DNA from: Minisyncoccia bacterium
Lineage (GTDB): Bacteria; Patescibacteriota; Minisyncoccia; SW-4-49-11
Assembly: GCA_044356725.1 (NCBI GenBank)
Contig: JBIKVS010000004.1
Location: 33,351-97,350 of the forward strand
Direction of reading: 5' to 3'
DNA: 64,000 nt
Positions 4,121 to 63,830 of this stretch are shown piece after piece (position 1 is the stretch's first letter; the number at the start of each line of letters is the position of its first letter). Below the pieces are notes generated by a model. It had not been told where the DNA came from. It saw nothing but the letters and a program-made list of their open reading frames with translations, and did no database searches. The position numbers and the translations under genes are program-made.

Positions 4121-4206
4121 AGACAAAAGTTTCAAAATATGGTATGTTTCTGATTGTACGGACTCTAGAGCAATTTAGAGTCAAATTTTCTCTACCCTGA
4201 GGAGGG
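4121..4206 (+). promoter_or_regulatory. Conserved cassette leader copy 1 (promoter, GNRA hairpin, SD)
   Basis: 78/86 nt identical to 4801-4886. Confidence 0.85.
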
Positions 4207-4209
4207 GTT

Positions 4210-4659
4210 ATGTCTAACTCTCAATCGGATATAGATCCATTTGAAGAAGCACAATTTTTCATTCCCAACTCATCATACTTTAGTAGATTGTATTGTTTGG
4301 ATTATATACTTACAAAACTTGATAGGGAACATAGAAGAATGGCTTTAAATATTTCTGATGACTCTAAACTTGCATTTGAAGGTGCTAATATACAACCTCC
4401 TGAGTATATTTATATTAAATTCATTGAAGAGTGGGAGTTAAGTGATAGTGATGTCCTGCACTTTGATTATCAGAGAAGAGGAGGAATTATCCCCAAATGG
4501 GGTCCTGGTGAAAAGTCGAAAGAATCACTTTTGCACATTGGGGCAATTATAAGGTTAAATCTTTTATATCAAATTAGAATGATAGGGCCAATAGATCCTA
4601 GCCCAAATGACTGTGAGTGGAGAAGAGTAGGAAAGATTGAAGTGGTAAAGCAAAGTTAA
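4210..4659 (+). CDS. Orphan hypothetical protein (cassette 1)
   Basis: 149-aa ORF with own promoter, GAGGAGG SD and terminator. Confidence 0.75.
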   Translation: MSNSQSDIDPFEEAQFFIPNSSYFSRLYCLDYILTKLDREHRRMALNISDDSKLAFEGANIQPPEYIYIKFIEEWELSDSDVLHFDYQRRGGIIPKWGPGEKSKESLLHIGAIIRLNLLYQIRMIGPIDPSPNDCEWRRVGKIEVVKQS

Positions 4660-4674
4660 TAAGTGTTTTCATTT

Positions 4675-4716
4675 CCCCCGCGTGCGATGCGGGGGTTTTT
4701 ATTTTCGACTATTTAT
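4675..4716 (+). terminator. Intrinsic terminator, cassette copy 1
   Basis: cccccgcgtgcgatgcgggggtttttattttcgactatttat, identical to 5265-5306. Confidence 0.85.
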
Positions 4717-4800
4717 TCACTCTCTCCACCACTTCCTAAACTTAAAGTATAGGAGGAACTTAAAGCCCTACGACAAGAATAGATTATCTCTTCGCAATAT

Positions 4801-4886
4801 TGACAAAAGTTTCAAAATATGATATGTTTCTGTTTGTCCAGGCTCTAAAGTAATTTAGAGTCAAATTTTCTCTACCCTGAGGAGGG
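4801..4886 (+). promoter_or_regulatory. Conserved cassette leader copy 2
   Basis: TTGACA..TGATATGTT promoter, GGCTCTAAA-GTAA-TTTAGAGTC hairpin, GAGGAGG SD. Confidence 0.85.
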
Positions 4887-4890
4887 TTTT

Positions 4891-5253
4891 ATGTTGAATG
4901 TTCATTCGGCTGCATCAGCTGCAGAATTTTTTGTAGTAGATAGAATAACTGGGAAAGCTAGAATATATGACTTATCTTGTAAAGAGACTAAGGAAACAAG
5001 AATATTTTGGCTTCAAACTAGTCCTCTGAAAACAGAGTATATAGTTCTATTTTGCGATGTAACTTTAGACAATGGCAGAACAATTTCAGGTGGTGGTGAA
5101 ATATCTATTATAAAAGAAGAGTTTGATAAACTCGAAATTAATGATAATGTAGAAATAGGATTTGAGATACGTCAGAATTTCGGAGAACCTAGGAAATTAT
5201 ACCCACTTACATTAAAGTTTATAGATAGAGAAGGAGCTCTCGATCTTTCTTGA
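4891..5253 (+). CDS. Orphan hypothetical protein (cassette 2), possibly OB-fold-like
   Basis: 120-aa ORF with own promoter, SD and terminator. The fold is a guess from the beta-strand pattern. Confidence 0.75.
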   Translation: MLNVHSAASAAEFFVVDRITGKARIYDLSCKETKETRIFWLQTSPLKTEYIVLFCDVTLDNGRTISGGGEISIIKEEFDKLEINDNVEIGFEIRQNFGEPRKLYPLTLKFIDREGALDLS

Positions 5254-5264
5254 TTACCCCCCCC

Positions 5265-5306
5265 CCCCCGCGTGCGATGCGGGGGTTTTTATTTTCGACT
5301 ATTTAT
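5265..5306 (+). terminator. Intrinsic terminator, cassette copy 2, with its 5' C arm extended to a C13 run
   Basis: Identical to 4675-4716; poly-C at 5257-5269. Confidence 0.85.
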
Positions 5307-5355
5307 CTATAATTTGGTATAATAAATATACTTCAAATTAAGAAAATATACTGTT

Positions 5356-7911
5356 ATGCCCTCGCCGATGATGACTCAGTTTTATGAAATCAAAAAATCT
5401 TATCCGAATGATATTTTGTTTTTCCGCCTTGGGGACTTTTATGAAATGTTTGCAGAGGATGCGAAGTTAGCAGCTCCAATACTGGATTTAGTGCTAACAG
5501 CAAGAAAGAATACAGTAGATGGTAGTATTCCAATGTGTGGGGTACCTTATCATTCATCTACTCAATATATTCAAAAACTAATCAAAGCTGGACATTCCGT
5601 AGCTTTATGCGAACAACAAGGATCAGCTCAAGATACTAAAGGTTTAGTCACTAGAAAGGTGGTAAAAGTCATTACTCCGGGGACAGCCTTATTTGAGACT
5701 GAGACAAGTGAATCAAGATATATAGCTAGTATTTATAAACAGAAAGATATTATATATATCGCTTTTGCTGACTTAGGGACTGGAATTTTTGAAGTGGGGG
5801 AATTTAGTTCTCAAGAATTAAAAGATATTTTAAGTTCAAGACAAGTCAAAGAAATTATATTGCCACAAAATAGTGATTTGAGTGAAGAATTAAAAGATTT
5901 GGGTATAAAATTAAGTATAGAGTCAAAGTGGAACTTTCAATTAGAGCGGTCTATTGAGACTTTGACTAAACATTTTGGAGTTACTAGTATGTCCGGATTC
6001 GGTTTTGAAATTGATGATTTACGGTTAGCCCCAGCAGGAGCTTTACTTAATTATCTTATTTATACTCAACAAGAGGATTTGAAGCATATTACAAAATTGC
6101 AAAGCATGAAGTTATCTCGATATATGCGATTAGATGCCCAAACCATTCAAAATTTAGAGTTGTTTTATCTATCAAGAGCTAGTCAAAAGGGAAAAAGTTT
6201 TTATCAAGCTATTAATTATACTAGAAATCCTCTGGGATCTAGAATGTTGAAAAACTGGATATTAGCTCCATTATTAGATATTAAGTCAATTCAAACTCGT
6301 CAGAATCATATACAAAATTATATTCAAAACCCTAGTAAAATTGACCAAATTAGAGATTTATTAGCTCAAATTGCTGATATTGAGAGACTATTAGCTAGAC
6401 TTTCTAGTAATGTCGGCGGACCTAGAGATATGTTATTATTATCCAAAAGTTTTGAATATATTATTAAAGTTTTAGAGATTGATAATGAGGATTATATAAA
6501 GTCTGCTATAAAGGCTTTGAGTCAATTAAACCCTCTACAACAAGAATTGCAAAAAGCTCTACAAGAAAATGTTCCAATATTAGCTCGGGATGGTGGATTC
6601 GTGGCCAAAGGTTATAGAGCAGAAATTGATGAGTTACTAGATTTAAGTCAAGGAGGTAAGGAGTGGCTACTAGAATTACAAACCAAAGAACAAGCGAGAA
6701 CCGGGATTAATTCTCTTAAAGTTAAGTATAATAAGGTCTTTGGATATTATATAGAAATTAGCAATGCTCATAAGAATCAGGTTTTACCAGACAATTATAT
6801 CAAAAAGCAAACTTTAGCTAATGCAGAGCGATATATTACTCCTGAATTAAAAGAATTTGAGGAAAAGATATTAAGTTCAGAGTCTCAACTATTAAATTTA
6901 GAACAAATAGTTTTTGAAGAATTAAGACAAGCTATTATAGCCGAGGCGGAACAAATTTATACTATTGCTGAGACTTTAGCCTATATTGATTGTATACAAG
7001 CTGGGGCCAAATTAGCCCTAGATTGGAATTATATAAAGCCTATAATTACTAAAAAATCTAAATTATATATAGAGGCCGGCCGACATCCAGTTTTGGAGCA
7101 GTTAATTACAGATTATATACCTAATAATTGTAAACTCACCGAACCAAATCACTCTCTAATGTTAATTACAGGTCCTAATATGGGAGGTAAATCTACTTAT
7201 ATTAGGCAAGTAGCTTTGATTGTGCTTCTAGCTCAAATTGGATACTATGTCCCAGCTATTGAGGCTGAGATTGGAATAGTGGATAGAATTTTTACTCGAG
7301 TAGGAGCTTCGGATAATATGAGTGAGGGACAAAGTACTTTTATGGTGGAAATGCTTGAAGTTGCAAATATTTTGCATAATGCTACCAAATCTAGTTTGGT
7401 TATTTTAGATGAAGTCGGTAGAGGCACTTCTACTTATGATGGGATGAGTATAGCCAAGGCTTTGATTGAATATATTCATAATACAATTGGAGCTAGAACT
7501 CTATTTGCGACTCATTATCACGAATTATTAAATTTGGAAGCAGAATTAGAGGGAGTGGTGAATTATCAGGTTTTAATTCAAGACTCTGAGGATGATATTA
7601 TTTTCCTACATCGTATTGAACAAGGTGGAGCTGATAAAAGCTATGGAATTGCCATTGCTAAATTAGCAGGATTTCCAATAGATGTGCTAGAATTAGCTAA
7701 AGGAGCACTTATTCAATATGAACAAAAAAAGTCTCAATTATCTTTTTTACCAACAAATAATCTAAAATCGCCTCAAGATCCAGCAATAAACCCAAAAATT
7801 GAGAAATACAATAATTTATTACAAAATCTGCACTCTTATAATTTGAATAATTTAACTCCGATGCAGGCATTATCTATATTAGATGACTTACAAAAGAATA
7901 ATCCACTATGA
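5356..7911 (+). CDS. mutS: DNA mismatch repair protein MutS
   Basis: FFRLGDFYEMF, ITGPNMGGKSTYIRQ, STFMVEM, DEVGRGTST, FATHYHEL. Confidence 0.98.
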   Translation: MPSPMMTQFYEIKKSYPNDILFFRLGDFYEMFAEDAKLAAPILDLVLTARKNTVDGSIPMCGVPYHSSTQYIQKLIKAGHSVALCEQQGSAQDTKGLVTRKVVKVITPGTALFETETSESRYIASIYKQKDIIYIAFADLGTGIFEVGEFSSQELKDILSSRQVKEIILPQNSDLSEELKDLGIKLSIESKWNFQLERSIETLTKHFGVTSMSGFGFEIDDLRLAPAGALLNYLIYTQQEDLKHITKLQSMKLSRYMRLDAQTIQNLELFYLSRASQKGKSFYQAINYTRNPLGSRMLKNWILAPLLDIKSIQTRQNHIQNYIQNPSKIDQIRDLLAQIADIERLLARLSSNVGGPRDMLLLSKSFEYIIKVLEIDNEDYIKSAIKALSQLNPLQQELQKALQENVPILARDGGFVAKGYRAEIDELLDLSQGGKEWLLELQTKEQARTGINSLKVKYNKVFGYYIEISNAHKNQVLPDNYIKKQTLANAERYITPELKEFEEKILSSESQLLNLEQIVFEELRQAIIAEAEQIYTIAETLAYIDCIQAGAKLALDWNYIKPIITKKSKLYIEAGRHPVLEQLITDYIPNNCKLTEPNHSLMLITGPNMGGKSTYIRQVALIVLLAQIGYYVPAIEAEIGIVDRIFTRVGASDNMSEGQSTFMVEMLEVANILHNATKSSLVILDEVGRGTSTYDGMSIAKALIEYIHNTIGARTLFATHYHELLNLEAELEGVVNYQVLIQDSEDDIIFLHRIEQGGADKSYGIAIAKLAGFPIDVLELAKGALIQYEQKKSQLSFLPTNNLKSPQDPAINPKIEKYNNLLQNLHSYNLNNLTPMQALSILDDLQKNNPL

Positions 7912-9683: not shown

Positions 9684-9693
9684 TATAAAATAT

Positions 9694-10629
9694 ATGCAGA
9701 ATCAAAAAACAGTATTAATAGAAGTCGGTATAAGTGCTTTACTTTGGATCACTATTGTGATGATATTAAATTCAGTACTTGGCAGTATACCCACTCTATT
9801 AGGAGGTATATTGGCAGGACTTTTAGGGATAATATATATTTCAACACTATCATTATATGTCTGTATTGAAGATACTCCGAAGCATATTGTACAATTTATA
9901 CTTTTACAAATTTTACCATTAATTTTTATAGGTCTTTGGTTTGACCTAATGACAGCCTTAATTATAGTATTTACATTAATCCTAGGGATACAAACATTAT
10001 TCAAGACTATTAAAGATATGAATGAAAGTGCCAGTGACCATATCAGATTTAGGGTAAAGACTATCGTGCTACCACATACCAAAAGGATGATTATATGGTT
10101 AATGCTCTTAACCTCAGTCTTTATCTACGGGAACACTATTAGAACCAATCCTAATGGTATTTTGCTCGAAGAATCTTTTGTAGGCAATCAAATTCAAGCC
10201 TGGCTTCCTATTGTTCAAGAAATTGCTCCAGACTTTGACCCTAATATCTCAGTTGGAAATTATGTCTCCGAGCAATTAGACTCCCAGATAGAATCTCAAA
10301 ATCTAGATACAAGGCTAATTAATAGAGATACAGCTATTCAAAATCAAATCAGCACTCTATCCAATAGATTCCAAATCCCTATTAATCGAGACACCCCAAT
10401 CATTCAAGCTTTTATCACTTATATTAATAAATTTATTTCTCCTTGGATGAGTGGTCCACTTTGGGGAATTATAGTCTCCTTGATAGTATTTTTGACCTTT
10501 TTACCATTTGTGTGGGTATTCCAAATAGGAATTAGACTTATTACAAATTTGATAAAATATTGGAGCATTAAAACTAATTTAGTTAAATTGAATGTTAAAA
10601 GCACTGAGAAAGAGAGATTGAGGTTGTAG
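9694..10629 (+). CDS. Hypothetical multi-pass membrane protein
   Basis: Several hydrophobic segments; start moved to ATG 9694. Confidence 0.7.
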   Translation: MQNQKTVLIEVGISALLWITIVMILNSVLGSIPTLLGGILAGLLGIIYISTLSLYVCIEDTPKHIVQFILLQILPLIFIGLWFDLMTALIIVFTLILGIQTLFKTIKDMNESASDHIRFRVKTIVLPHTKRMIIWLMLLTSVFIYGNTIRTNPNGILLEESFVGNQIQAWLPIVQEIAPDFDPNISVGNYVSEQLDSQIESQNLDTRLINRDTAIQNQISTLSNRFQIPINRDTPIIQAFITYINKFISPWMSGPLWGIIVSLIVFLTFLPFVWVFQIGIRLITNLIKYWSIKTNLVKLNVKSTEKERLRL

Positions 10630-10646
10630 TTAGTGAATTGAATTAA

Positions 10647-10752
10647 AATTCCCCTCTCTTCCTACGGTTTACCTACCGCAGGCAGGGAGATAAATTGAGG
10701 GGTGCCCATAGGGCAAGGTGGAAAAACCAGGCGACTGAAAGGTCGCCCCTAC
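10647..10752 (+). repeat. Two-hairpin REP-like repeat followed by GTAG-type REP
   Basis: 10647-10722 resembles 3991-4074 (reverse complement); ggcgactgaaaggtcgcccctac at 10730-10752. Confidence 0.8.
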
Positions 10753-10840
10753 GAGAACTATGAACTAAAATGAGGAATATATTATAGACAAAAGTGGGGA
10801 AATATGCTATTGTCTAGGAGTTCCCTCAAACCATCAGGCT

Positions 10841-11131
10841 ATGACCATGTCACAAACTGATAAAGATAGAGCTTTGCAAGAGGCAAGAGGTGCCTACCAG
10901 GATTCTGACGGAGCTCTCGTGGCTCTTGCTGCTGCTGCCAAAGAGTATCAGGACATTTTTGCCCTTACCAGGCACCCCAACTTTAAGGATAGTGTCATGA
11001 CAGGAGAGGTTTTCGCTGATCTGACCCAGGCTAGGCGAAAAATGAAGGAGGCTTTTGATGAAGTCTCTCGCACAGAAACAGCTCTTTTTAAGCAAGTTGC
11101 TAGTCTTCTTGCACCGGCATCGGGTGATTGA
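10841..11131 (+). CDS. Orphan helical hypothetical protein in a standalone transcription unit
   Basis: 96 aa, visibly more GC-rich than its neighbours. TAGACA..TGCTATTGT promoter upstream; hairpin plus T8 downstream (about 11158-11188). Confidence 0.7.
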   Translation: MTMSQTDKDRALQEARGAYQDSDGALVALAAAAKEYQDIFALTRHPNFKDSVMTGEVFADLTQARRKMKEAFDEVSRTETALFKQVASLLAPASGD

Positions 11132-11196
11132 ATCAATCTTCACCTCCACGCCCTCCCCCCCGACCGTTTCGCGGCTCGGGTTTTTTTTACATCAAA

Positions 11197-11223
11197 ATAG
11201 CACTCTGTACAGATTAGTGCTAA
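11197..11223. promoter_or_regulatory. CIRCE element (HrcA operator)
   Basis: ATAGCACTC-N9-TAGTGCTAA versus consensus TTAGCACTC-N9-GAGTGCTAA, directly upstream of dnaJ. Confidence 0.85.
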
Positions 11224-11267
11224 TATTGTATAATATTTGGTATAAAACAATTTTAGATATCAAGTCA

Positions 11268-12371: not shown

Positions 12372-12405
12372 TATAATATAAAAATATAGTTTTAAATATA
12401 AAAAT

Positions 12406-13376: not shown

Positions 13377-13386
13377 ATTAATCAAT

Positions 13387-15233: not shown

Positions 15234-15250
15234 TATTCATATAACAGTTG

Positions 15251-16614: not shown

Positions 16615-16629
16615 ACTCACCCTAATTAT

Positions 16630-37873: not shown

Positions 37874-37905
37874 ATAAAAAATCACCCCGCTCAGTGCGAG
37901 GTGGG

Positions 37906-38178
37906 TTAAAGATATTGTCTGATTTCTCGCCATTCTTTCAGTAGAATAGTCGGTGGGTTTAGAGGTTCTCCATATTCATCACAGGGTAGTATAAAATAAC
38001 AAGTTTCACTACCAATTAATTCTCCCTGTGGCCCATATATTTTAGTTTCAGTAAAGTTTTGGTAGAACTTCCAATGAGAATCGATATTTATAGTCTGATA
38101 AGGAAGATTGACTATATTTATTGTTTCAAAAATAGCGAATAGTTGCGGCCAAATTTCAAGAAATTGTTGATAGTTCAA
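37906..38178 (-). CDS. Orphan hypothetical protein in a standalone unit
   Basis: TTGCTA-17-TATGAT promoter, GAGGA SD, TTG start, GC hairpin at about 37882-37905. Confidence 0.6.
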   Translation of the reverse strand: MNYQQFLEIWPQLFAIFETINIVNLPYQTINIDSHWKFYQNFTETKIYGPQGELIGSETCYFILPCDEYGEPLNPPTILLKEWREIRQYL

Positions 38179-38234: not shown

Positions 38235-39485
38235 TTATTGAGTTTTTAATCCTAATACTCTTTGTGCTGCAATTTGAAAGTGACTTCTATTAAATTCTTC
38301 AGCTTGAGGATCTCCTGGATGATGATATTCTCTTGCCAAAAAACCAACTTTATCTGGATCAACAGCATTTTTACTGGTTGAATAACTTTCTGAAGCTCGA
38401 GACATTTCACTAGCTTGAGTTTTTATTTGTATTTTATGCATTTGTAGAACATTTGATAAATTGATACCTTGAGTCTTTAATTCTGGATCAATATCATTCA
38501 AATTGACATCTTTATTTACTCTGATTATATCTCCTAAAATTTTACTTCTAGGATTTACTAAAGAATTCTCACCATAATTTACTATATGCTCTAATAAAAC
38601 TGTTTGATAATCTGCTATCAGCTTAGATAAAGCTAATTGTATTTCTTGATAACTTATAGAATCTCTTAGTTCTGGTCTTATGGTGATTGCAATTGTATCA
38701 GCTTTATGTCTAGTATCTCCAATCGAAAATTTAGGAATATCTATAGTAGCTATTACTCCTGGAACTTCTACTAATTCCTCAGTAACTATTCTTTCTGATT
38801 CTGAACCTTTTGAATCATCTTGGAAAGTTGTCTTTTGTCCATCTGTTAAAAATCTTTGATTTCCTGTACTTGTTAATTTTGATATTTCTATAAAACCTTC
38901 AAATTCAGGATTTTTAGTATCTGGAATTGTTAAGTGTTCTAGAAAATCTATTTCTAATGGCTTTCCTTCAGCATTTCCAAATCCATACTTTTGATCTATT
39001 TTAGTTTCAGCTATGATTTCTAGTAGTTTGCTATAATATGCAGACATAATACTCTCAATATCAGACTTAGCAAGATGTATTTCAGTCATTTCTACAGATT
39101 TTAAAAGTTCTTTATAAATTCGGTATCTTTCTAATAAAAATTCAACAGAATCACTTTCTATTTCTAAACTACCCTCTGTATTATATGAATTTAATTCTTT
39201 GTAAACCTCATAATTTTTAATAGATGTTTGAATATTCTCCAATGTCCTTCTGTAATCATTTAATTGTCTTTGAACTCTCGGATTAGTTGTTTTTGTATTT
39301 TCAGAAATAAGGACTTCTAATGCAGTAGATTCATGTTGCTTTTTAGTAATTAAAGTTGTAAGTTCGGTATCTAAATCTAAATTTTCTTCATTAGGATCGG
39401 TAGAGTATATTAAACTTAAAAACTCTTCACTACTATACTCTGATAAATCTTTTGGTTTCTCTCGTGTTTCAACTAAAGTTTCCAT
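38235..39485 (-). CDS. Hypothetical protein with coiled-coil N-terminus and possible PD-(D/E)xK-like C-terminus
   Basis: 416 aa; GSESERIV..L, D...KAD.I, KIQIKT motifs. Confidence 0.65.
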   Translation of the reverse strand: METLVETREKPKDLSEYSSEEFLSLIYSTDPNEENLDLDTELTTLITKKQHESTALEVLISENTKTTNPRVQRQLNDYRRTLENIQTSIKNYEVYKELNSYNTEGSLEIESDSVEFLLERYRIYKELLKSVEMTEIHLAKSDIESIMSAYYSKLLEIIAETKIDQKYGFGNAEGKPLEIDFLEHLTIPDTKNPEFEGFIEISKLTSTGNQRFLTDGQKTTFQDDSKGSESERIVTEELVEVPGVIATIDIPKFSIGDTRHKADTIAITIRPELRDSISYQEIQLALSKLIADYQTVLLEHIVNYGENSLVNPRSKILGDIIRVNKDVNLNDIDPELKTQGINLSNVLQMHKIQIKTQASEMSRASESYSTSKNAVDPDKVGFLAREYHHPGDPQAEEFNRSHFQIAAQRVLGLKTQ

Positions 39486-45570: not shown

Positions 45571-46104
45571 CTAAACTGAAGCAGTAGTCCAAATTTCCTC
45601 TACATCATCTAATTCTTCTAGAATTTCAATCAAATTTTCTAGTTTTTCTTTAGTTTCATCAGATATTTCAGTTGGAATATTCACTTTATACTCTTGCTCT
45701 CTGGTAATTTCTTCAAACATCCAAATCACAGAACCATTAGCTCCAAGAGTACCACCATTTTTAGATAAAAGATGCCGTAAATCAGCTACGGTACGATTCG
45801 GGTTGTCGGTATAAGTCTTGATTAATAAACCAACTCCCTCTGGACCAAACCCCTCATACATAATCACTTGGCCACTAGTATTGGAAGCTTTCTCTAAAAT
45901 TCGATTAATATTATCTTTAGGCATATTAACTTCTTTAGCCTTTTCGAGAGCTAATCTTAACTCTGGATTCATAGCAGGGTCAGTAGAACCTTTTCGAGCT
46001 GCAATTTGAATCATTTTGACTACTTTGGAAAAATTTTGAGCCTTAAGTTTATCTGTAGCTGCTTTTTTATGCTTAATTTTAGAGAATTTATTATGCCCAG
46101 CCAT
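45571..46104 (-). CDS. yebC: YebC/PmpR-family protein (short form)
   Basis: MAGHNKFSKIKHKK, NP.LR, NMPKDNI, YEGFGP.G, TDNPNRT. Confidence 0.92.
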   Translation of the reverse strand: MAGHNKFSKIKHKKAATDKLKAQNFSKVVKMIQIAARKGSTDPAMNPELRLALEKAKEVNMPKDNINRILEKASNTSGQVIMYEGFGPEGVGLLIKTYTDNPNRTVADLRHLLSKNGGTLGANGSVIWMFEEITREQEYKVNIPTEISDETKEKLENLIEILEELDDVEEIWTTASV

Positions 46105-46211: not shown

Positions 46212-46234
46212 GTAGGGGCGACCTTTCAGTCGCC
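46212..46234 (+). repeat. GTAG-type REP
   Basis: gtaggggcgacctttcagtcgcc. Confidence 0.8.
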
Positions 46235-46314
46235 TGTATTCTATATACCTCATAAAACTAGACAAAAATGTAAAAATATGGTATAAGATTAAAGTAAATT
46301 ATGGAGCGATCTCC

Positions 46315-46701
46315 ATGTCCCGTTTCAATCGCTTTGTTCTGTTTTTTCTTTCCACAACACTCCTCCTAGGAGTGTCAGGGTGTAATGGAATGCCAAAAAG
46401 TGAAAGAAAAATTTTTAATGAAATGAGATATACAGTACATTTATACTCCGTTGATAATACAGATGCTAAAGAGATGGTCATGCATAAAGATGTAAAGCAA
46501 GAGGATTTAAGGGATATGTGTAAATCCACATCAAAATTTACCAGGTTATGTCATATTGTATCTATGCTTCCAGCTGGGCAGCCAAATTTTAATGGTAACT
46601 ATATAAGAGTTATTCCTGAGGATATTGTAGTGCCAGGATATTCATCCCTCCTCATAGATGGGAGTGATACTGTCTTATTGCTTCAAAAACCTACCCAGTA
46701 G
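46315..46701 (+). CDS. Orphan putative lipoprotein
   Basis: Signal peptide ending in lipobox-like VSGC; own promoter and terminator (about 46721-46744). Confidence 0.7.
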   Translation: MSRFNRFVLFFLSTTLLLGVSGCNGMPKSERKIFNEMRYTVHLYSVDNTDAKEMVMHKDVKQEDLRDMCKSTSKFTRLCHIVSMLPAGQPNFNGNYIRVIPEDIVVPGYSSLLIDGSDTVLLLQKPTQ

Positions 46702-46880
46702 GTCACATTCTATACTCTAAAGCCCGGCATTGACCGGGTTTTTTATTTTGACCCCGTAGTGATGACTTTATATTTACTTGTGCTTTATAAACCTCTAAAG
46801 AATAGAATAAAATTAGAAAAAGTTGAATAAATTGAAAGGAGTCACTCTTGAGAGACTCCAATGTAATGTTATTGCTCATT

Positions 46881-47099
46881 TTAATCTTCTAATTTAGCTA
46901 TAATACAATAACACAATACTACTGCTATTAAATATATAATTATATAAAGCAAATTAGCAAAAAATTTTTCCCAATACCCAACAATCAGATGAACAAATAT
47001 AGAAAAATAATTCCAGAAAAGACACAATACAAATATATAAGAAACAACAGTGAGAATATATTTGCACAATTCTAGTAACTCAAATTTAAGATTAGGCAC
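46881..47099 (-). CDS. Small orphan two-TM protein
   Basis: TAGACA..TGATATAAG promoter, GGAG SD, GTG start, downstream hairpin at about 46838-46859. Confidence 0.55.
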   Translation of the reverse strand: MPNLKFELLELCKYILTVVSYIFVLCLFWNYFSIFVHLIVGYWEKFFANLLYIIIYLIAVVLCYCIIAKLED

Positions 47100-47167
47100 G
47101 GAAAGTCTCCGTATAGTACAATAGACTTATATCATATTTTAATACTTTTGTCTATATTTAAATTCCA

Positions 47168-47190
47168 GGCGACTGAGAGGTCGCCCCTAC
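47168..47190 (-). repeat. GTAG-type REP
   Basis: ggcgactgagaggtcgcccctac. Confidence 0.8.
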
Positions 47191-47352
47191 GAAAGTCTAA
47201 GTGTAAGGTTTGAAGTTCCTTATAATGGCTTGTATAAAAGCGATATATAAGATGAATATCTCGATTTACTGGGTATTGAGTTTATATAGTTATTAACATT
47301 GAAAAACTTTGGGGAATATGATATTTTTTATATACATCTCTGGAGAGTTCCG

Positions 47353-47712
47353 ATGGACAAGGCTGTCCCTGTAGGACTGGGTACATTTTTACAAATAATA
47401 AAATGGCTACTTATTTGGTTTGTGCTTATAACAGTTTTAACAGTAGCTAGTATTGCGATAGAAGATAATTCAGAGTATGAGATCAGGAGAGTTGAAATAT
47501 ATGAACTTGTCATAAATGATAATATAATAGAACATCAAATACCTTTTCGAAGTAATTTAGACGCTCAAAATACTTGTCCCAATAAATATTATTTAGTCAA
47601 TTCGAATTCGCTATACATTGATCAAATAGTAGAGGAGCAAATGAGGATACCTTCATATTGTTTTATTTATTATCCTCACTATGATGGGGTATTGCTTATA
47701 CCAAGACAATAA
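47353..47712 (+). CDS. Orphan single-TM protein, probable distant paralog of 46315-46701
   Basis: Start at ATG 47353 after GGAG; terminator aagagcttc-gctta-gaagctctt followed by a T run. Confidence 0.65.
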   Translation: MDKAVPVGLGTFLQIIKWLLIWFVLITVLTVASIAIEDNSEYEIRRVEIYELVINDNIIEHQIPFRSNLDAQNTCPNKYYLVNSNSLYIDQIVEEQMRIPSYCFIYYPHYDGVLLIPRQ

Positions 47713-47792
47713 ATACAAGAGCTTCGCTTAGAAGCTCTTTTTTCTTTATAGAAATTTCCTACATTAATCTAACCTATGCTATAATAAACTAT

Positions 47793-51694: not shown

Positions 51695-51695
51695 C

Positions 51696-52218: not shown

Positions 52219-52318
52219 TCCACCCTCCCCCTTTGGGGACTCCCTCCAAAGGGAGACATTTTAGGACAATGAATTTTTGTCCCCCTTCGGAGGGGGAAGC
52301 CCGCGGGGCGGGGGTGGA
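52219..52318. repeat. Divergent pair of two-hairpin REP-like repeats
   Basis: 52219-52258 (-) and 52278-52318 (+). Confidence 0.8.
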
Positions 52319-52416
52319 TAACTTAATAACAAAGGTAGGACAGAAAACAAGAGTAATAGTAGTAATATTCTCAGTATAAAGAGAAAAGACCAGCCTCAAG
52401 GTGAGGCGGTCTGTGG

Positions 52417-52641
52417 TTAGTCGAGGAAGCTTTTTCTTGCAGATCTAGCATTATTTGCAATTGCTTTTGCCGCAATCACTATGATGCTCTCTGTCGAGCT
52501 TCCTCCAACTACTTTAGGCTCTTGATTGTTAGAATTAAATTGTCCGAGTTTCTCCTCTCTCAGAATTTGATTCCATTTTTCAGGTTTGGTTATTTGACGC
52601 CATATTTCTAGATCAACTAGGTCTATTCCTAGTCCTGGCAT
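52417..52641 (-). CDS. Orphan small protein with AcpS-like N-terminal motif
   Basis: MPGLGIDLVDL; followed by hairpin gaccgcctca-cct-tgaggctggtc and a T run. Confidence 0.5.
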   Translation of the reverse strand: MPGLGIDLVDLEIWRQITKPEKWNQILREEKLGQFNSNNQEPKVVGGSSTESIIVIAAKAIANNARSARKSFLD

Positions 52642-52738
52642 TTTCTTCTCCAAAAAACAACTTTAAAATATTATCATAATTCTAAATCTCAATCAATATG
52701 TTATAATAAAAACATCTTAGAAATTAATTAATAGAAGG

Positions 52739-53923: not shown

Positions 53924-54016
53924 ACATAACTTTTGTCATAAATTAACAAAAGTTAACAAGACTTGACAAAATTATTAAAAAGGTATAGATTAAATTTGCC
54001 TCCATTTTTCTGTGGA

Positions 54017-54181
54017 ATGCCTTCAAATCGTCGTCACAAGATTAATCGCAAGGTCAGAAAAGCAATAACATATTGGGGTCTTAGTCAAAGATCCTGTGAA
54101 AATCGTATTTTTCAAAGAGCCAGAAGCTGGCCTCAACCAAGAACAGGAAAATTAATTATTGATATGCCTGAGTCCACATAG
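54017..54181 (+). CDS. Small basic orphan protein (54 aa)
   Basis: TTGACA-17-TAGATT promoter at 53963; hairpin agcctccga-caa-tcggaggct downstream. Confidence 0.5.
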   Translation: MPSNRRHKINRKVRKAITYWGLSQRSCENRIFQRARSWPQPRTGKLIIDMPEST

Positions 54182-54299
54182 CTCAATACAACAACTGAAT
54201 ACCCTCCCCTTCCACTCAGCCTCCGACAATCGGAGGCTTTGTAAATTTTATAGGTATTAATTTTCCCTCTGAGTTGGTGGGAGTGGATAAGAAGTCATG

Positions 54300-54339
54300 T
54301 CCACCCTCCCCCTACGGGTACTCCCTCCGAAGGGAGACA
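54300..54339 (-). repeat. Two-hairpin REP-like repeat
   Basis: Near-identical to 52219-52258 and to the flanks of 27395-27541. Confidence 0.75.
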
Positions 54340-54449
54340 GAATATAAGATCCACCTCCTCCAACTACCTATGGAAGTTAAAAAGGAGGGCGGTTAGGTCA
54401 ATGATATGTTATAATAAATAAATATATACATATTTAATAATAAAACTTT

Positions 54450-56030: not shown

Positions 56031-56031
56031 T

Positions 56032-56705: not shown

Positions 56706-56707
56706 TT

Positions 56708-58237: not shown

Positions 58238-58240
58238 TTT

Positions 58241-61084: not shown

Positions 61085-61120
61085 ATGTGCTATAATAGAG
61101 ATAATTAAAATCGATTAAGT

Positions 61121-62008
61121 ATGCATCCATTACTTTATACTTTGGCATATGCAAACTCTCAAAAGAGATTATTGACCTTAGAGGAAATATATAGATATCA
61201 AATTGGAAGTACCTATTCACTATCAGAATTGGCTTTAGAAATAGCCAAAACTCCTCAAATTAGGACAGAAAATGGATTATATGGACTGGATATAGATTTT
61301 GTAGAATTGATAAATTTAAGACAAGAAAAAGGCCGTGAAAGCATTAGACGATATAGAAGAGTTATCAAATATGCCAGACTTTTAATAAGTATTCCATATA
61401 TTAAAGGGATATTTTTAGCAGGATCCTCTAGCTTTAGTACAGGTAATGCCAAGAAAAGTAGCGACATAGATATATTTATAGTAACTGACCCTAATCGTAT
61501 GTGGTTTGCTAGATTTTGCTTAACTATAATAACTCAAATTTTAGGTATTAGACGAGTAGGAGAGCTAGAAGAGAATAGATTTTGTTTGAATCATTATATT
61601 ACCGCCAATAATCTAGAGCGACAAGACCACACTCTATATGCAGCTCAACTATACTCAGACTATATTGCTATTGGAGCTGATTCACAAGTATTATTACAAA
61701 AATTTTGGCAAGCTAATCCTTGGAGAGAAGACTATCTCAGGCAGGCAGTATCTAGAGAATATCCAATTTTAAGTCAGCTAAAACCATATCCAATTAAGTA
61801 CTGGGTAGAAAAGTTTTTTAATCATTTTTCAATAGATTTCTGGAATTCTCTAGCCAAAATTATACAAAGGCAAAAAATTAATTCTAATGCAATTCAATCC
61901 AATTCTCATAATAGAATACAAGTAGATGATCAGGAATTAGAGTTTCACCCTGAGCCAAATAGTATTAAAGCCGACAAAATAATGCAGCAAGTATTGCAAA
62001 ATTTATGA
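61121..62008 (+). CDS. Pol-beta-like nucleotidyltransferase domain protein
   Basis: IPYIKGIFLAGS......SDIDIFIVT...RMWFAR, FCLNHY. Confidence 0.75.
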   Translation: MHPLLYTLAYANSQKRLLTLEEIYRYQIGSTYSLSELALEIAKTPQIRTENGLYGLDIDFVELINLRQEKGRESIRRYRRVIKYARLLISIPYIKGIFLAGSSSFSTGNAKKSSDIDIFIVTDPNRMWFARFCLTIITQILGIRRVGELEENRFCLNHYITANNLERQDHTLYAAQLYSDYIAIGADSQVLLQKFWQANPWREDYLRQAVSREYPILSQLKPYPIKYWVEKFFNHFSIDFWNSLAKIIQRQKINSNAIQSNSHNRIQVDDQELEFHPEPNSIKADKIMQQVLQNL

Positions 62009-62688
62009 TAGGTTTTTATGATAGCGGGATGGGAGGTCAGAGAATAGCCGACATGTTTGAGGAATCCTCAGACATCCCATATATTTGCTATCAAGACCGA
62101 GAATCTTTACCATTAGGAGATAAAACTACAGAACAGATTAGAGAAATAGTCATAGCTGGAGTTGAAAAATTATTTAATCAAGGTTGTAATCTAGTTATTT
62201 TAGCCTGTAATACCGCTTCAGTAACTACAATAAGGTATATACAATCTACTTGGCTCCCGCAAAATTACCCAAACAGACAAGTTCTAGGTGTGACAGTTCC
62301 CTTGATAGAATATTTAGATAATTTTACAGGATTAAAAATCAAAAAAGGTCTATTATTAGCCACACAAGCCACTATACAGACAGGGTTTTATCAAGAATAT
62401 TTAGCAGAGGCAGGGTATAATATAGACTATTTAGCTTGCCCAAATTTAGCTCAGGCAATAGAGCAGGATATATCTAAGCAAGACAATAATTATACTGAAT
62501 CAGTCAGAATATTACAAAACTTATCAGAAAACATTATAAATAAACCAGATTATATAGTTCTTGCCTGCACCCATTATGGTTATATAGCCACACAAATTCA
62601 AAATGTTTTTGAGGTTACTCAAATTATAGACCCTAGCCAGTACATAGCCAATAGAGTGCTAGATTATATACAAAGACATAAAATTTAA
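62005..62688 (+). CDS. murI: Glutamate racemase
   Basis: GFYDSGMGG, P.G.K, LACNTAS, LACTHY. Confidence 0.93.
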   Translation: MIGFYDSGMGGQRIADMFEESSDIPYICYQDRESLPLGDKTTEQIREIVIAGVEKLFNQGCNLVILACNTASVTTIRYIQSTWLPQNYPNRQVLGVTVPLIEYLDNFTGLKIKKGLLLATQATIQTGFYQEYLAEAGYNIDYLACPNLAQAIEQDISKQDNNYTESVRILQNLSENIINKPDYIVLACTHYGYIATQIQNVFEVTQIIDPSQYIANRVLDYIQRHKI

Positions 62689-62733
62689 TGTTGAGTTGTG
62701 AATGGTTAGTTATAAAATCAGAGTATTTTTAAT

Positions 62734-62994
62734 TGTCCTCCCTTGGGGGAGGTGGCACGAAGTTAGACTGTAAGTCTGTGAAAGGGGTCGGGAAAACGGG
62801 AGTTTTCCCGTGGAGGAAGGCAACGAGGTCAAAGACCGAGTGTTGGAAACCGTGGGTTTTCAAGGAGCAAATCCCATTTGCGACAGCGGAGAGAGGACTT
62901 AGCTAAATTTATATTTTAGTAGAGTCGGTAACCTTTGAGTTTAACCGTCATTATTCAAAAACACGAAATACAGGCGACATAAGGTCGCCCCTAC
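62734..62994. repeat. REP-like repeat with structured insert, followed by GTAG-type REP
   Basis: 62734-62897; ggcgacataaggtcgcccctac at 62973-62994. Confidence 0.8.
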
Positions 62995-63064
62995 GATAAG
63001 GTTAAACTTACCTTTTACTACTTTTATAAAATTTTCAACCCCATCTCCAAAATTTGAAGTGGGG

Positions 63065-63268
63065 TTAATATTGGCCTAAAATACTCAGTAAAGTGTCTAA
63101 TTTATCTTCCAGTAAATTTCTTTCATTTATACTTTTATCAGCTATTTCATTCTGAATATTTACTATCTTTTGTCTTAATTCTTCCTTAGACTTTTTATAA
63201 GGGTTATTTATAATCTCATTTATACCTTCTAATGTTGATGAATACACAGTATTTTCTATAAAGGTCAA
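63065..63268 (-). CDS. Small orphan coiled-coil protein
   Basis: TTGACA..TATTGT promoter at about 63299; hairpin at about 63038-63065. Confidence 0.5.
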   Translation of the reverse strand: MTFIENTVYSSTLEGINEIINNPYKKSKEELRQKIVNIQNEIADKSINERNLLEDKLDTLLSILGQY

Positions 63269-63362
63269 TTTACAATACCTAAAATTTAGACTTTTGTCAA
63301 ATTAGGGTTTACAAAAATATATATTTATGATATAAATATGTTGACCACTGTTGTCAAAACCC

Positions 63363-63548
63363 ATGCAAGAAAATGATCTAAGAGAATCAATTAGTTCGCC
63401 TATTCAAAAAAGAAACAAGTTAGGACATGTGATTTTAGCATTGTGCCCTATCTATCTAATAGCGTACAGTCCCAATATCAAATTTTCTAATATAATATAT
63501 ATATTACAGAACGAAGTACTATATGCATTAAATAAAATAAGATCATAA
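63363..63548 (+). CDS. Small orphan protein
   Basis: TTTACA..TGATATAAA promoter; GC hairpin at about 63566-63590. Confidence 0.45.
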   Translation: MQENDLRESISSPIQKRNKLGHVILALCPIYLIAYSPNIKFSNIIYILQNEVLYALNKIRS

Positions 63549-63656
63549 TCTATCAAATCACTACAGTCCCCGCAGGTCAACTTCGGGGGCTTTAAATACA
63601 TACTATTGACAAAATTTTTGGTTGTGGTAGAATAATTTTTGGTATACTCTAGAAAA

Positions 63657-63830
63657 ATGGAAGCAACTAGGTTGATGATTCCAAACTCAAACAGAAATAT
63701 TATGTCTGAAATAATCAGAGTACGGTATATAGTAGATACCATAGAGGGGAAAAAAAATATATCTTTGTGTGAGAAGAGAACTCTAGCTCACTGTAAGAAG
63801 AAGCTTCTACGACTTCAATCTCTAATCTGA
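63657..63830 (+). CDS. Small orphan protein
   Basis: TTGACA..TGGTAGAAT promoter at 63606-63633; hairpin aatctgacca-cctcg-tggtcagatt followed by a T run. Confidence 0.45.
   Translation: MEATRLMIPNSNRNIMSEIIRVRYIVDTIEGKKNISLCEKRTLAHCKKKLLRLQSLI

What the first reader, a model, noticed from the sequence alone, without database searches (positions are those of the whole stretch)
4121..63830. Window-wide class of standalone orphan mini-genes with hairpin-occluded SD sites, often next to GTAG REPs
Seen: at least 12 small orphan ORFs (starts 4210, 4891, 10841, 38178-, 46315, 47099-, 47353, 52641-, 54017, 63268-, 63363, 63657) each have their own sigma70-like promoter (often TAGACA/TTGACA-aaa...aatATGnTA) and a GC-rich terminator. 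Several carry an SD inside a mini-hairpin: CCCT-GAGG-AGGG, GGAG-CGAT-CTCC-ATG (46303), GGA-GAGT-TCC (47342), CGGAG-ACT-TTCCG (47099-), TATCC-ATTTGA-GGATA (38178-). Ribosomal-protein genes here mostly have AT-rich starts without GGAG. Promoters at about 10786, 46259 and 47154 lie within about 35 bp of an intact GTAG REP. Established: GTAG REPs are substrates of RAYT HUH nucleases. Inference: a REP-associated pool of mobile, translationally damped single-gene cassettes, possibly toxins or host-interaction effectors.
Basis: partly seen in the sequence, partly recalled or inferred. Interest (0 to 1): 0.72.

Follow-up and report, generated by a model that had tools for sequence, protein, structure and literature searches.

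The report
Swappable small genes in fixed slots
In this tiny lake bacterium of the candidate phyla radiation, several small unknown genes sit in fixed gaps between housekeeping genes, and related species keep the same on-switch and stop signal there but carry different genes between them. The repeats and hairpins that first drew attention are no commoner beside these genes than elsewhere in the genome.

Summary
The window lies in an 897-kb Paceibacteria (CPR) genome. The 12 "orphans" are a mixed set.
- Five are real lineage-restricted protein genes with homologs (o1, o2, o4, o5, o7).
- Two are gene-like ORFans (o3, o8).
- One is a fast-evolving unit conserved in synteny (o9).
- Four are doubtful as proteins (o6, o10, o11, o12; o12 looks more like a small RNA unit).

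REPs are real: 58 loci with a GTAG head, restricted to this genus. A divergent RAYT-like gene exists. But REPs are not enriched beside variable genes, and SD occlusion by hairpins matches background.

Three things hold up.
- Core genes avoid SD (3% against 9% background) and carry T at -1 (80%), whereas 19% of small variable genes have an SD motif.
- Gene order is conserved, but set gaps hold different small genes in different species.
- Upstream of mutS and dnaJ, promoter/5'UTR and terminator "scaffolds" are 87-98% identical between species whose neighbouring core genes are 73-76% identical, yet they flank ORFs with no detectable similarity.

Best reading: slot-bound expression cassettes whose ORFs turn over by homologous recombination and/or very fast divergence. 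This resembles Neisseria minimal mobile elements and phage morons, not REP/RAYT transposition. Function is unknown.

The parts
3776..4100 (.). GC-rich mosaic of hairpin repeat modules, with a REP copy at 3832-3853 (-), between tRNA-Leu and the first cassette
   Evidence: Repeat families D1, D4, D5, D10. REP locus C10:37182-37203. Very high depth in lake metagenome contigs.
4113..4209 (+). Slot A scaffold, copy 1: promoter (TAGACA-17-TGnTATGTT) plus 5'UTR with a 9-bp hairpin and CCCTGAGGAGG
   Evidence: It is 82-87% identical to the same slot in L009, L014, L017 and L019.
4210..4659 (+). o1, 149 aa, a real lineage-restricted protein gene
   Evidence: 7 homologs at 75-80% identity, with indels in whole codons. 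The G008/L017 homolog is 79% identical and sits in the same slot. Coding score 0.154.
4675..4716 (+). Slot A terminator module, copy 1 (poly-C plus 9-bp GC stem plus T-run)
   Evidence: (D13, 100% identical to copy 2).
4793..4890 (+). Slot A scaffold, copy 2 (promoter plus 5'UTR)
   Evidence: 88% identical to copy 1 over 105 nt. 87-89% identical to L014 and L019.
4891..5253 (+). o2, 120 aa, a real protein gene. It may be a distant homolog of the mutS-proximal cassette ORF of L019.
   Evidence: One homolog at 67% identity. 0 of 150 relatives. hhalign vs L019b: probability 63%, E 7e-5 over 30 aa. Coding score 0.196.
5265..5306 (+). Slot A terminator module, copy 2, directly before the mutS promoter
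   Evidence: 88-97% identical in L009, L010, L014, L017 and L019.
10640..10757 (.). Slot B mosaic repeats with a REP at 10730-10752 (-)
   Evidence: The gap is only 64-89 bp in 7 of 10 relatives.
10778..10840 (+). Slot B promoter plus 5'UTR start
   Evidence: 98% identical over 49 nt to L019, where a different ORF follows. Promoter scan.
10841..11131 (+). o3, 96 aa, an ORFan with gene-like codon usage and 48% GC
   Evidence: Coding score 0.222. 0 of 150 relatives. Only itself in two protein libraries; the one extra hit is inflated by repeats.
11155..11195 (+). Slot B terminator module
   Evidence: 85-97% identical in L009, L014 and L019, behind three other ORFs.
37883..38178 (-). o4 (37906-38178, 90 aa) plus its terminator. 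It is probably the last gene of a variable two-gene unit with the 416-aa gene at 38235-39485.
   Evidence: Homologs in L007 (67%) and G008 (72%), beside the homolog of the 416-aa gene. The gap is 56 nt with no terminator in it; a terminator lies at 37883-37903.
46212..46742 (+). REP (46212-46234), promoter module (46252-46284), o5 lipoprotein gene (46315-46701, 128 aa) and terminator (46719-46742)
   Evidence: Homologs in L005 (72%) and L003/G008 (37%), each with a REP just upstream. Lipobox LGVSGC. Terminator.
46881..47190 (-). o6 (46881-47099, 72 aa, GTG start), doubtful as a gene, with a promoter module (47129-47159) and a REP (47168-47190)
   Evidence: Coding score 0.008. No homolog. Promoter module.
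47293..47739 (+). o7 (47353-47712, 119 aa, N-terminal membrane anchor) with its promoter and a bidirectional terminator
   Evidence: Homolog at 72% identity in L001/G004, same slot. Promoter and terminator.
52393..52692 (-). o8 (52417-52641, 74 aa). Gene-like, no detectable homolog, but both flanks are conserved in G004.
   Evidence: Coding score 0.196. It is one of 7 loci with both flanks conserved. Weak promoter and terminator.
53963..54260 (+). o9 unit: a conserved promoter followed by a fast-evolving 54-aa basic ORF (54017-54181), conserved in position across the genus
   Evidence: Positional analogs of 53-56 aa at 12-26% identity; the promoter block aligns in 4 genomes. Coding score 0.062.
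63065..63548 (.). o10 (63065-63268, -) and o11 (63363-63548, +), both doubtful
   Evidence: o10 has no Met, and its TTG lies 4 nt after the -10 box. o11 has coding score 0.02. No homologs at E<0.01.
63606..63848 (+). o12 unit: strong promoter (11/12, TG), a body of about 190 nt, and an 11-bp terminator. It is a candidate small RNA or a decaying small gene.
   Evidence: 83% nt identity in G004, but the ORF is frameshifted there. Coding score -0.009.

Best explanation
The window does not hold one class of REP-borne mobile mini-genes. It holds a strongly syntenic core genome with a limited number of fixed gaps (slots) where accessory content turns over.

In at least two slots (upstream of mutS and upstream of dnaJ), the turnover unit is a single-gene expression cassette. 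A consensus extended -10 promoter and a conserved 5'UTR (hairpin plus SD-like element in slot A), together with a conserved poly-C/GC-hairpin terminator, form a constant scaffold shared across the genus. The ORF between them differs from species to species.

Most likely mechanism (inferred, not shown): DNA taken up from relatives recombines through the conserved core flanks and through the conserved promoter and terminator modules themselves. Unequal recombination between tandem scaffold copies adds or removes units. Part of the apparent non-homology is very fast in-place divergence of short ORFs.

REPs and the other GC-rich hairpin modules are a separate, genus-specific repeat population that settles in the same long intergenic gaps. 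SD motifs on some cassettes belong to the scaffold or to imported DNA, in a genome whose own genes start translation without SD.
For: Shown:
- Gene order zwf-ruvC-yebC-[gap]-polA-efp-...-xseA and cfa/p541-[gap]-mutS-mutL-p9661-[gap]-dnaJ-nrdR is kept in 7-11 relatives. The gaps vary from 64 to 2943 bp and hold different ORFs.
- Slot A holds six ORF groups (o1/L017; o2; L019a/L010/L012; L019b; L014; L009) between the same 5' module and terminator.
- Slot B holds four different ORFs between the same promoter start and terminator, and is empty in 7 of 10 relatives.
- Against L019, scaffold identity is 87-98% while mutS, mutL and dnaJ nucleotides are 73-76% identical.
- The 5'UTR stem of 9 pairs is unbroken in 8 sequences, with one compensatory pair.
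- Each cassette family occurs only in its own slot in G000, G004 and G008.
- Genome-wide, 66 variable genes without a G004 homolog lie in filled syntenic slots. Of these, 20 keep the upstream flank, 14 the downstream flank and 7 both, against 0 in other-slot controls.
- o1 is 79% identical in a species whose MutS is 72% identical, and is missing from six closer relatives.
- L009 carries a second mutS promoter and N-terminus of the other lineage's type next to an insertion.
- ComEC, DprA and RecA are present.

Inferred: the recombination mechanism itself.
Against: - No recombination event was observed directly.
- Contigs from three other lake samples carry o1, o2 and o3 unchanged, so no within-species polymorphism was seen.
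- o2 and L019b share a 30-aa segment (hhalign probability 63%), and o9 has weak positional analogs. So some "different" ORFs may be diverged orthologs rather than replacements.
- The core/variable classes rest on my own ORF caller and on two relatives.
- Only 11 same-genus genomes exist in the collection.
- No expression data: the RNA run covered only repeats, the tRNA and relatives' sequence.
- AF2 models of o1 and o2 were unusable (pLDDT 40.8 and 38.9), so hidden structural homology among the cassettes cannot be excluded.
Confidence: 0.55

Rival explanations
1. In-place hyper-divergence. The scaffolds and their ORFs are vertically inherited. The short ORFs evolve so fast, or are born and lost so often, that homology is lost while the regulatory signals stay constrained. 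No exchange between lineages is needed.
For: - o2 vs L019b, which hold the same position in two-cassette arrays, give hhalign probability 63% over 30 aa.
- o9 analogs keep their length (53-56 aa) and start motif at 12-26% identity.
- In L010 the cassette ORF is broken by a 33-bp duplication, and o12 is frameshifted in G004. Both show local decay.
- Each family stays in its own slot.
Against: - o1 is more similar (79%) in a distant species than the adjacent MutS (72%), and is absent from six closer relatives.
- Homology stops sharply at the end of the 5'UTR and resumes at the poly-C tract.
- o1 vs o2 and o2 vs the L019a family give hhalign probabilities of 0.1-2%.
- Scaffold identity does not fall with phylogenetic distance: 82-84% to the closest relative and 87-98% to a distant one.
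Confidence: 0.25
2. The mini-genes are cargo moved by REP/RAYT (HUH nuclease) activity and kept translationally damped by SD-occluding hairpins.
For: - A GTAG-headed REP family has 58 loci and is present in 11 of 11 same-genus genomes.
- A RAYT-like ORF has HUH and Tyr motifs.
- A REP lies 8-33 nt from the promoters of o3, o5 and o6.
- REP-promoter-o5 is kept as a unit in L003 and L005.
- 3 of 15 promoter modules lie within 60 nt of a REP.
Against: - REP density is not higher beside small variable genes (0.60 vs 0.58 per kb; p=0.17).
- 28 of 54 intergenic REPs lie between two core genes.
- 71 of 89 gene-bearing slots have no REP.
- No cassette is bounded by REPs on both sides.
- Families never change slot.
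- SD pairing equals background, and the hairpins are not conserved.
- The RAYT scores below both family cut-offs and is not flanked by REPs in G000.
- RAYT was found in only 4 of 11 other same-genus genomes, although all of them have REPs.
Confidence: 0.05
3. Much of the list is not protein-coding. Some units are small RNAs or chance ORFs in AT-rich spacers and repeat islands.
For: - Coding scores of o6 (0.008), o9 (0.062), o11 (0.02) and o12 (-0.009) lie with shadow ORFs (median 0.004) and below 98% of real gene fragments.
- o10 lacks any Met and has no room for a leader.
- The o12 unit is conserved at 83% nt identity but frameshifted in G004.
Against: - It applies to at most 5 of 12.
- o1, o2, o4, o5 and o7 have protein-level homologs.
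- No Rfam family fits any of the units.
Confidence: 0.15

Closest known systems
Minimal mobile elements (MMEs) of Neisseria
   Same: Two conserved flanking genes with different whole-gene cassettes between them in different strains or species, and no dedicated mobility gene. Incorporation is ascribed to homologous recombination (definition read in PMC3082526, section 6). Here there are conserved flanks and differing cassettes, and DNA-uptake and recombination genes are present.
   Different: Here the constant part extends inward to a promoter/5'UTR and a terminator that hug the ORF and are more conserved than the core genes. The cassettes are single ORFs of 50-150 aa. The comparison is between species of a CPR genus, not strains. 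Recombination is inferred only.
Phage morons
   Same: Independent transcription units added between conserved genes and spread by horizontal transfer (abstract of PMC3594210, seen in the listing). o1, o2, o3, o5, o7 and o12 have their own promoter and terminator.
   Different: The setting is chromosomal, not a phage. 0 of 25 cassette ORFs gave a credible PHROGs hit. Morons are not known (my recall) for constant regulatory scaffolds with exchangeable ORFs.
REP/REPIN-RAYT systems and BIME-like mosaics
   Same: Short GC-rich palindromes with a GTAG head, extragenic, many copies, lineage-specific, plus a single-copy HUH/Tyr transposase-like gene. REPINs and RAYTs are described in the abstracts listed. 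The mosaic of several hairpin modules recalls E. coli BIMEs (my recall).
   Different: The RAYT candidate is below the family cut-offs and is not flanked by REPs. Most REPs are singlets rather than inverted doublets. The host is a CPR bacterium: a search for RAYT, REPIN and 'Candidate Phyla Radiation' found no paper holding all three. They are not linked to the orphan genes.
SD-independent initiation with a canonical anti-SD, as in Bacteroidetes
   Same: The 16S 3' end keeps CCUCC, yet only 3% of core genes have GGAG/GAGG at -18..-4, below the 9% intragenic background. Leaders are A-rich and G-poor. The abstract of PMC7797042 (listing) describes the Bacteroidetes case.
   Different: Here there is a very strong T at -1 (80% of 599 core genes). 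A minority of accessory genes do carry SD motifs. Whether the ribosome can use them is unknown.

Membership tests
REP/REPIN-RAYT system | Short (20-40 nt) imperfect palindrome, many copies, extragenic | tested here: met
   58 distinct loci of a roughly 23-nt element with a 6-7-bp GC stem and a variable loop; 54 lie in called intergenic regions. A reversed-pattern control gave 0 in 17 genomes.
REP/REPIN-RAYT system | Conserved 5' GTAG/GTGG tetranucleotide beside the stem | tested here: met
   37 copies carry the exact GTAGGGGCGAC head. Most fuzzy hits also start with GTAG. The role of GTAG as the RAYT cleavage site is recalled, not tested.
REP/REPIN-RAYT system | REPs arranged as inverted doublets (REPINs) | tested here: inconclusive
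   Only 3 pairs lie within 200 nt in G000, one of them tight (C18:28567/28612). A few more have degenerate second arms. Tight doublets were also seen in G002 and G010.
REP/REPIN-RAYT system | Cognate single-copy RAYT with HUH and catalytic Tyr | tested here: inconclusive
   A 186-aa ORF at G000:C5:40598-41155. NF047646 scores 62.3 bits against a cut-off of 80, and PF01797 scores 18.8 against 23. NHFHG and SFYDH align with TnpA-REP 4ER8. It was found in 6 of 17 family genomes, including this one.
REP/REPIN-RAYT system | RAYT gene flanked by its own REPs | tested here: not met
   No REP within about 1.5 kb of the gene in G000, G008, G004, G002-C18 or G011. REPs lie beside or inside only a degraded G002 copy and the G013 copy.
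REP/REPIN-RAYT system | RAYT binds and cleaves the REP hairpin | not testable with these tools
   This needs purified protein and oligonucleotides.
Minimal mobile element (MME) | Two conserved flanking genes | tested here: met
   cfa/p541 and mutS; p9661 and dnaJ; yebC and polA. All are conserved in 7-11 relatives.
Minimal mobile element (MME) | Different whole-gene cassettes between those flanks in different strains or species | tested here: met
   Six ORF groups in slot A, four in slot B and at least eight in slot C, with no BLASTP similarity between groups at E<1e-3 except signal peptides.
Minimal mobile element (MME) | No mobility gene inside the element | tested here: met
   0 transposase or integrase families among the 12 orphans and 13 relatives' cassette ORFs. 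Repeat modules are present, however.
Minimal mobile element (MME) | Incorporated by homologous recombination of the flanks | not testable with these tools
   Indirect evidence only: ComEC, DprA and RecA are present, L009 has a hybrid mutS upstream region, and o1 identity is incongruent with the core.
Phage moron | Own promoter and terminator around one gene | tested here: met
   Consensus scans support this for o1, o2, o3, o5, o7 and o12. These are consensus matches only, with no transcript data.
Phage moron | Resides in a phage or prophage genome | tested here: not met
   The neighbours are housekeeping genes, and no credible PHROGs hit was found.

The most novel reading that the evidence does not exclude
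The genus maintains dedicated "sockets": ultra-conserved promoter/5'UTR-hairpin and terminator modules at fixed chromosomal sites. Their job is to express an exchangeable, hypervariable small protein drawn from a population-wide pool, perhaps for host interaction or phage defence. On this reading the scaffold's SD-like element gives these cassettes a separate translation route in an otherwise SD-less genome. That would be a promoter-and-terminator-delimited analogue of an integron, without an integrase.
Probability: 0.15. Interest if true: 0.75.

Novelty: new variant of a known kind. Interest (0 to 1): 0.45.

Why it matters
CPR bacteria have tiny genomes full of unknown small proteins, and how their accessory genes turn over is poorly understood. 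This window shows a concrete, testable pattern. Non-coding regulatory scaffolds are more conserved than essential genes, they bracket ORFs that are unrelated between species, and the pattern recurs at 7 loci against the closest relative, plus 3 more against a more distant one. If exchange is real, it marks where such organisms keep their fast-evolving functions and offers natural expression modules for them. The analysis also removes a tempting but unsupported link between REPs, hairpins and orphan genes. It documents SD avoidance with T at -1 in core genes, and a REP family with a RAYT-like gene in a CPR genus.

Tried and rejected
- Fold assignment for o1 and o2: AF2 models were too poor to search (pLDDT 40.8 and 38.9).
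- ESM Atlas neighbours of o2 are small beta-barrels (DUF2500, DUF3592, DUF7489 and phage hypotheticals, TM about 0.6). This is a lead only. o1 gave nothing above TM 0.41.
- The HMMER search for o3 gave one hit (E 9e-14). It comes from 13 identical tandem repeats, each matching at 24 bits, so I rejected it as homology.
- Rfam at permissive E-values gave only sub-threshold whalefall-1 hits (21-24 bits vs 37) on GC-rich repeat modules, and nothing for the o9 or o12 units.
- Expression and population polymorphism: the one RNA run laid covered only repeats, the tRNA and relatives' sequence. All runs were contigs. A part without cover is no evidence.
- One abundant related contig (X6 record 29) joins the scaffold 5' module to the terminator region with unknown letters between. 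I did not interpret it further.
- REP-RAYT co-occurrence: the two genomes richest in REPs have intact RAYT-like genes, but a genome with 16 REPs has none. This is too few genomes to test.
- The script had an index error and returned 0 hits. It was corrected.

Full report
**Setting.** The window is G000:C10:33351-97350 of an 897-kb, 20-contig genome with 33% GC, 99% complete. Its right end is the end of the contig. Relatives found with PolA, MutS and UvrA are MAGs labelled Paceibacteria, Parcubacteria or Minisyncoccia, which are candidate phyla radiation bacteria. Runs that hold the DNA are lake-water metagenomes. The larger ORFs are ordinary housekeeping genes: mutS, mutL, dnaJ, nrdR, a ribosomal protein cluster, suf genes, zwf, ruvC, polA, efp, xseA, uvrA and murI.

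**The observation.** All 12 ORFs exist at the stated starts.
- None hits Pfam or NCBIfam (0 of 12). PHROGs and PADLOC gave nothing credible.
- A consensus promoter is listed for 8 of 12. o5 and o6 have a TAGACA-N17-TGnTATAAG variant. A terminator is listed for 7 of 12, and o3 has a visibly conserved one.
- In this AT-rich DNA, promoter-like sites are not above shuffles, but terminator-like sites are.
- A more specific 26-nt promoter module occurs 15 times in the genome and 0 times in the reversed control. Five copies are in this window. Downstream lie 6 variable genes, 1 core gene and 8 stretches with no called gene.

**Which orphans are genes.** I scored ORFs with a codon log-odds trained on long ORFs. 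Real gene fragments have a median of 0.23 per codon (5th percentile 0.10). Shadow ORFs have a median of 0.004.
- Gene-like scores: o1 0.154, o2 0.196, o3 0.222, o8 0.196, o10 0.227.
- Low scores but with protein homologs: o4 0.094, o5 0.082, o7 0.093.
- Scores like non-coding DNA: o6 0.008, o9 0.062, o11 0.02, o12 -0.009.

Homolog evidence:
- o1 has 7 homologs at 75-80% identity.
- o2 has one homolog at 67%.
- o4 has homologs in L007 (67%) and G008 (72%).
- o5 has homologs in L005 (72%) and L003 (37%).
- o7 has a homolog in L001/G004 (72%).
- o2 and o3 were found in 0 of 150 other genomes. o3 has no credible homolog in two very large protein libraries.
- o10 has no methionine, and its TTG lies 4 nt after the -10 box.
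- The o12 unit (promoter 11/12 with TG, 11-bp terminator) is 83% identical in G004, but the ORF is frameshifted there.
- o9 has positional analogs of 53-56 aa at 12-26% identity behind a conserved promoter.
- o4 lies 56 nt behind a 416-aa gene that varies together with it, with no terminator between them, so it is probably not standalone.

**SD and hairpins, genome-wide.** I called 803 genes with my own caller. I classed them by tblastn against two whole same-genus genomes fetched in pieces: G004 (median 89.9% aa identity) and G008 (74.1%). This gave 599 core genes (hit in both) and 204 variable genes, of which 114 hit neither. Starts were chosen without looking at SD: by ortholog alignment where possible, otherwise by the first ATG.

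The 16S rRNA ends in the canonical CCUCC tail. GGAG/GAGG at -18..-4 occurs as follows:

| Gene set | With SD motif |
|---|---|
| Core genes | 16 of 599 (3%) |
| Variable genes | 21 of 204 (10%) |
| Core genes of <=150 aa | 3 of 124 (2%) |
| Variable genes of <=150 aa | 12 of 63 (19%) |
| Internal ATGs (background) | 9.1% of 924 |

For variable vs core genes the odds ratio is 4.2, p=4.6e-5. Most orphans lack SD too.

Core leaders are A-rich and G-poor, and 80% have T at -1. All 11 translation genes in the window follow this pattern.

Occlusion was tested as the pairing probability of the SD bases in a -35..+20 fold.
- It has median 0.52 for the 21 variable SD genes and 0.51 for 892 intragenic SD-like sites (p=0.24).
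- The orphans range from 0.33 to 0.98.
- Their folding energies are within -1.6 to +0.8 sd of shuffles.
- Only o5 has a convincing SD/start hairpin, and it is not kept in its L005 ortholog.
- The CCCT..AGGG arm of o1/o2 is absent from 5 of 8 scaffold copies.

**REPs and RAYT.** The element is a roughly 23-nt sequence with a GTAG head, a 6-7-bp GC stem and a variable loop. It has 58 distinct loci, 54 of them in intergenic regions. It sits in mosaics with several other GC-rich hairpin modules.
- The exact pattern occurs in 11 of 11 other same-genus genomes (1-20 copies; 30 in this genome). It occurs in 0 of 5 genomes of other genera, and the control gave 0.
- A 186-aa ORF on contig C5 matches the REP-associated tyrosine transposase model. 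It scores 62.3 bits (cut-off 80) and has HUH and Tyr motifs aligned to TnpA-REP.
- That ORF is not flanked by REPs. Relatives of it were found in 4 of 11 other same-genus genomes.

REP density per kb of intergenic DNA:

| Gap type | REPs per kb |
|---|---|
| Between two core genes | 0.58 |
| Beside any variable gene | 0.33 |
| Beside a small variable gene | 0.60 (p=0.17) |

Of 579 core-to-core slots, 89 hold 185 variable genes. Only 18 of these 89 slots contain a REP. Of 18 slots holding one small gene, 4 contain a REP. The three REP-promoter proximities in the window are real but are not a genome-wide rule.

**What is really there.** Core synteny is tight: 518 of 579 slots are syntenic with G004 and 502 with G008. 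A minority of gaps vary.
- The yebC-polA gap is 565-2795 bp in seven relatives. It holds o5, o6 and o7 here. In the relatives it holds an o7 homolog alone, an o5 homolog with other genes, a 128-aa protein, a RhuM-family gene, a PIN-like pair, or a 143-aa ORF.
- The p9661-dnaJ gap is 64-89 bp in 7 of 10 relatives, 638 bp here, and 663-921 bp in three others.

In two slots the varying unit has constant edges.
- Upstream of mutS, a module of about 100 nt is shared by eight cassette copies in six genomes. It comprises the promoter, a 9-bp 5'UTR hairpin with one compensatory pair and none broken, and a CCCTGAGGAGG element in 6 of 8 copies. A poly-C plus GC-hairpin terminator is shared as well. The ORFs between them fall into six groups without BLASTP similarity.
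- Upstream of dnaJ, the promoter start (98% over 49 nt to L019) and the terminator (85-97%) bracket four different ORFs.
- Against L019 the scaffolds are 87-98% identical, while mutS, mutL and dnaJ are 73-76% identical at nucleotide level.
- Homology stops sharply at the end of the 5'UTR and resumes at the poly-C tract.
- Genome-wide, 66 variable genes without a G004 homolog lie in filled syntenic slots. Of these, 20 keep the upstream 120 nt, 14 keep the downstream 80 nt and 7 keep both. Controls against other slots gave 0. The seven include o1, o2 and o8. Three more such loci appear against G008.

**Mechanism.** Each cassette family was found only in its own slot in three whole genomes. This argues against transposition.

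For exchange by recombination:
- o1 is 79% identical in a species whose MutS is 72% identical, and it is absent from six closer relatives.
- Scaffold identity does not fall with phylogenetic distance.
- L009 carries a second mutS promoter and N-terminus of the other lineage's type beside an insertion.
- Tandem scaffold copies exist here and in L019.
- ComEC, DprA and RecA are present.

For in-place divergence:
- o2 and L019b, both in the mutS-proximal position, share a 30-aa segment (hhalign probability 63%).
- o9 has only weak positional analogs.
- Cassette ORFs decay locally.

I therefore rate slot-bound turnover, mainly by homologous recombination with some fast divergence, at 0.55. I rate pure in-place divergence at 0.25 and the REP/RAYT cargo model at 0.05.

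The view that up to five of the ORFs are not protein genes (0.15) can hold alongside any of these.

**Function.** Nothing is known.
- o5 has a lipoprotein signal and o7 has a membrane anchor. The others look cytoplasmic.
- AF2 models of o1 and o2 failed.
- The ESM Atlas places o2 near small beta-barrel clusters, some from phages. This is a lead only.
- No transcript evidence could be obtained.

**Comparison with known systems.** The closest concept is the Neisseria minimal mobile element, whose definition I read in PMC3082526, section 6. Phage morons share the promoter-gene-terminator build; I saw only the abstract of PMC3594210 in the listing. The REP family fits REP/REPIN features only in part. 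A search for RAYT, REPIN and "Candidate Phyla Radiation" listed no paper holding all three. Searches for Patescibacteria with Shine-Dalgarno, and for Parcubacteria with palindromic intergenic repeats, found nothing on point. SD avoidance with a canonical anti-SD is known from Bacteroidetes (abstract of PMC7797042, listing).

**Verdict.** The REP-and-hairpin interpretation fails its own test. The cassette idea survives in a different form: fixed slots and conserved regulatory scaffolds around exchangeable or hypervariable small ORFs.

Noticed in passing
whole genome G000; window examples 16348, 20582, 20959, 21370, 21816, 22434, 23412, 23769, 24138: Core genes have T at position -1 in 80% of 599 cases and an A-rich, G-depleted leader. 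SD motifs are rarer upstream of core genes (3%) than at internal ATGs (9%), although the 16S tail is canonical.
   Followed up: partly
window 62733-62900: A GC-rich, apparently structured repeat of about 170 nt. At least 12 copies are >=88% identical over >=120 nt on nine contigs of this genome, and copies also occur in G004. No Rfam family matches it.
   Followed up: partly
window 63901-64000 (contig end): The last 100 nt or so of the contig recur at the ends of contigs C1, C5, C11, C14 and C17 (95-100% identity). An unassembled multi-copy element therefore probably breaks the assembly here.
   Followed up: no
window 52222-52259 (-), 52277-52319 (+), 54303-54340 (-): GC-rich hairpin repeat modules give sub-threshold hits to the metagenome-derived whalefall-1 RNA motif RF01762 (21-24 bits, gathering score 37).
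   Followed up: no
G000:C5:40598-41155 (-) = L008:1450-2010: The RAYT-like 186-aa ORF lies 13 nt downstream of a CCA-adding-enzyme-like gene. Its closest relative is in G008 (87%, with one in-frame TGA) rather than in the closer species G004 (65%). This conflicts with PolA identities of 78% and 89%.
   Followed up: partly
L009:9400-9900 (G004, upstream of mutS): A second mutS promoter plus the first ~14 codons of mutS, of the other lineage's type, is followed by a ~420-bp insertion. The insertion carries a 122-aa minus-strand ORF of no known family. The real mutS follows.
   Followed up: partly
L010:9600-9670: A 33-bp tandem duplication interrupts the slot A cassette ORF of this relative (family of L019a and L012), leaving a pseudogene inside an intact scaffold.
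   Followed up: no
window 3553-3575 and 3722-3745: The 3' end of tRNA-Leu(TAA) is repeated about 165 nt downstream as a direct repeat of about 22 nt. This is the kind of scar left by an element that integrated into the tRNA gene.
   Followed up: no
window 45571-46104 (-): The YebC/PmpR-family gene is only 177 aa and covers positions 1-136 of a 245-position profile. This short form is conserved at 89-94% in all seven relatives, so it is not a recent truncation.
   Followed up: no
window 53924-53962: Upstream of the conserved o9 promoter lies an inverted repeat with arms of about 9 bp (AACTTTTGT...ACAAAAGTT) that aligns in four genomes. It may be an operator.
   Followed up: no
window 3667-4200 and 10609-10875: In contigs of other lake samples these repeat islands have summed depths 10-100 times those of the flanking genes, including in one RNA library. 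The modules are therefore very abundant across the community.
   Followed up: no
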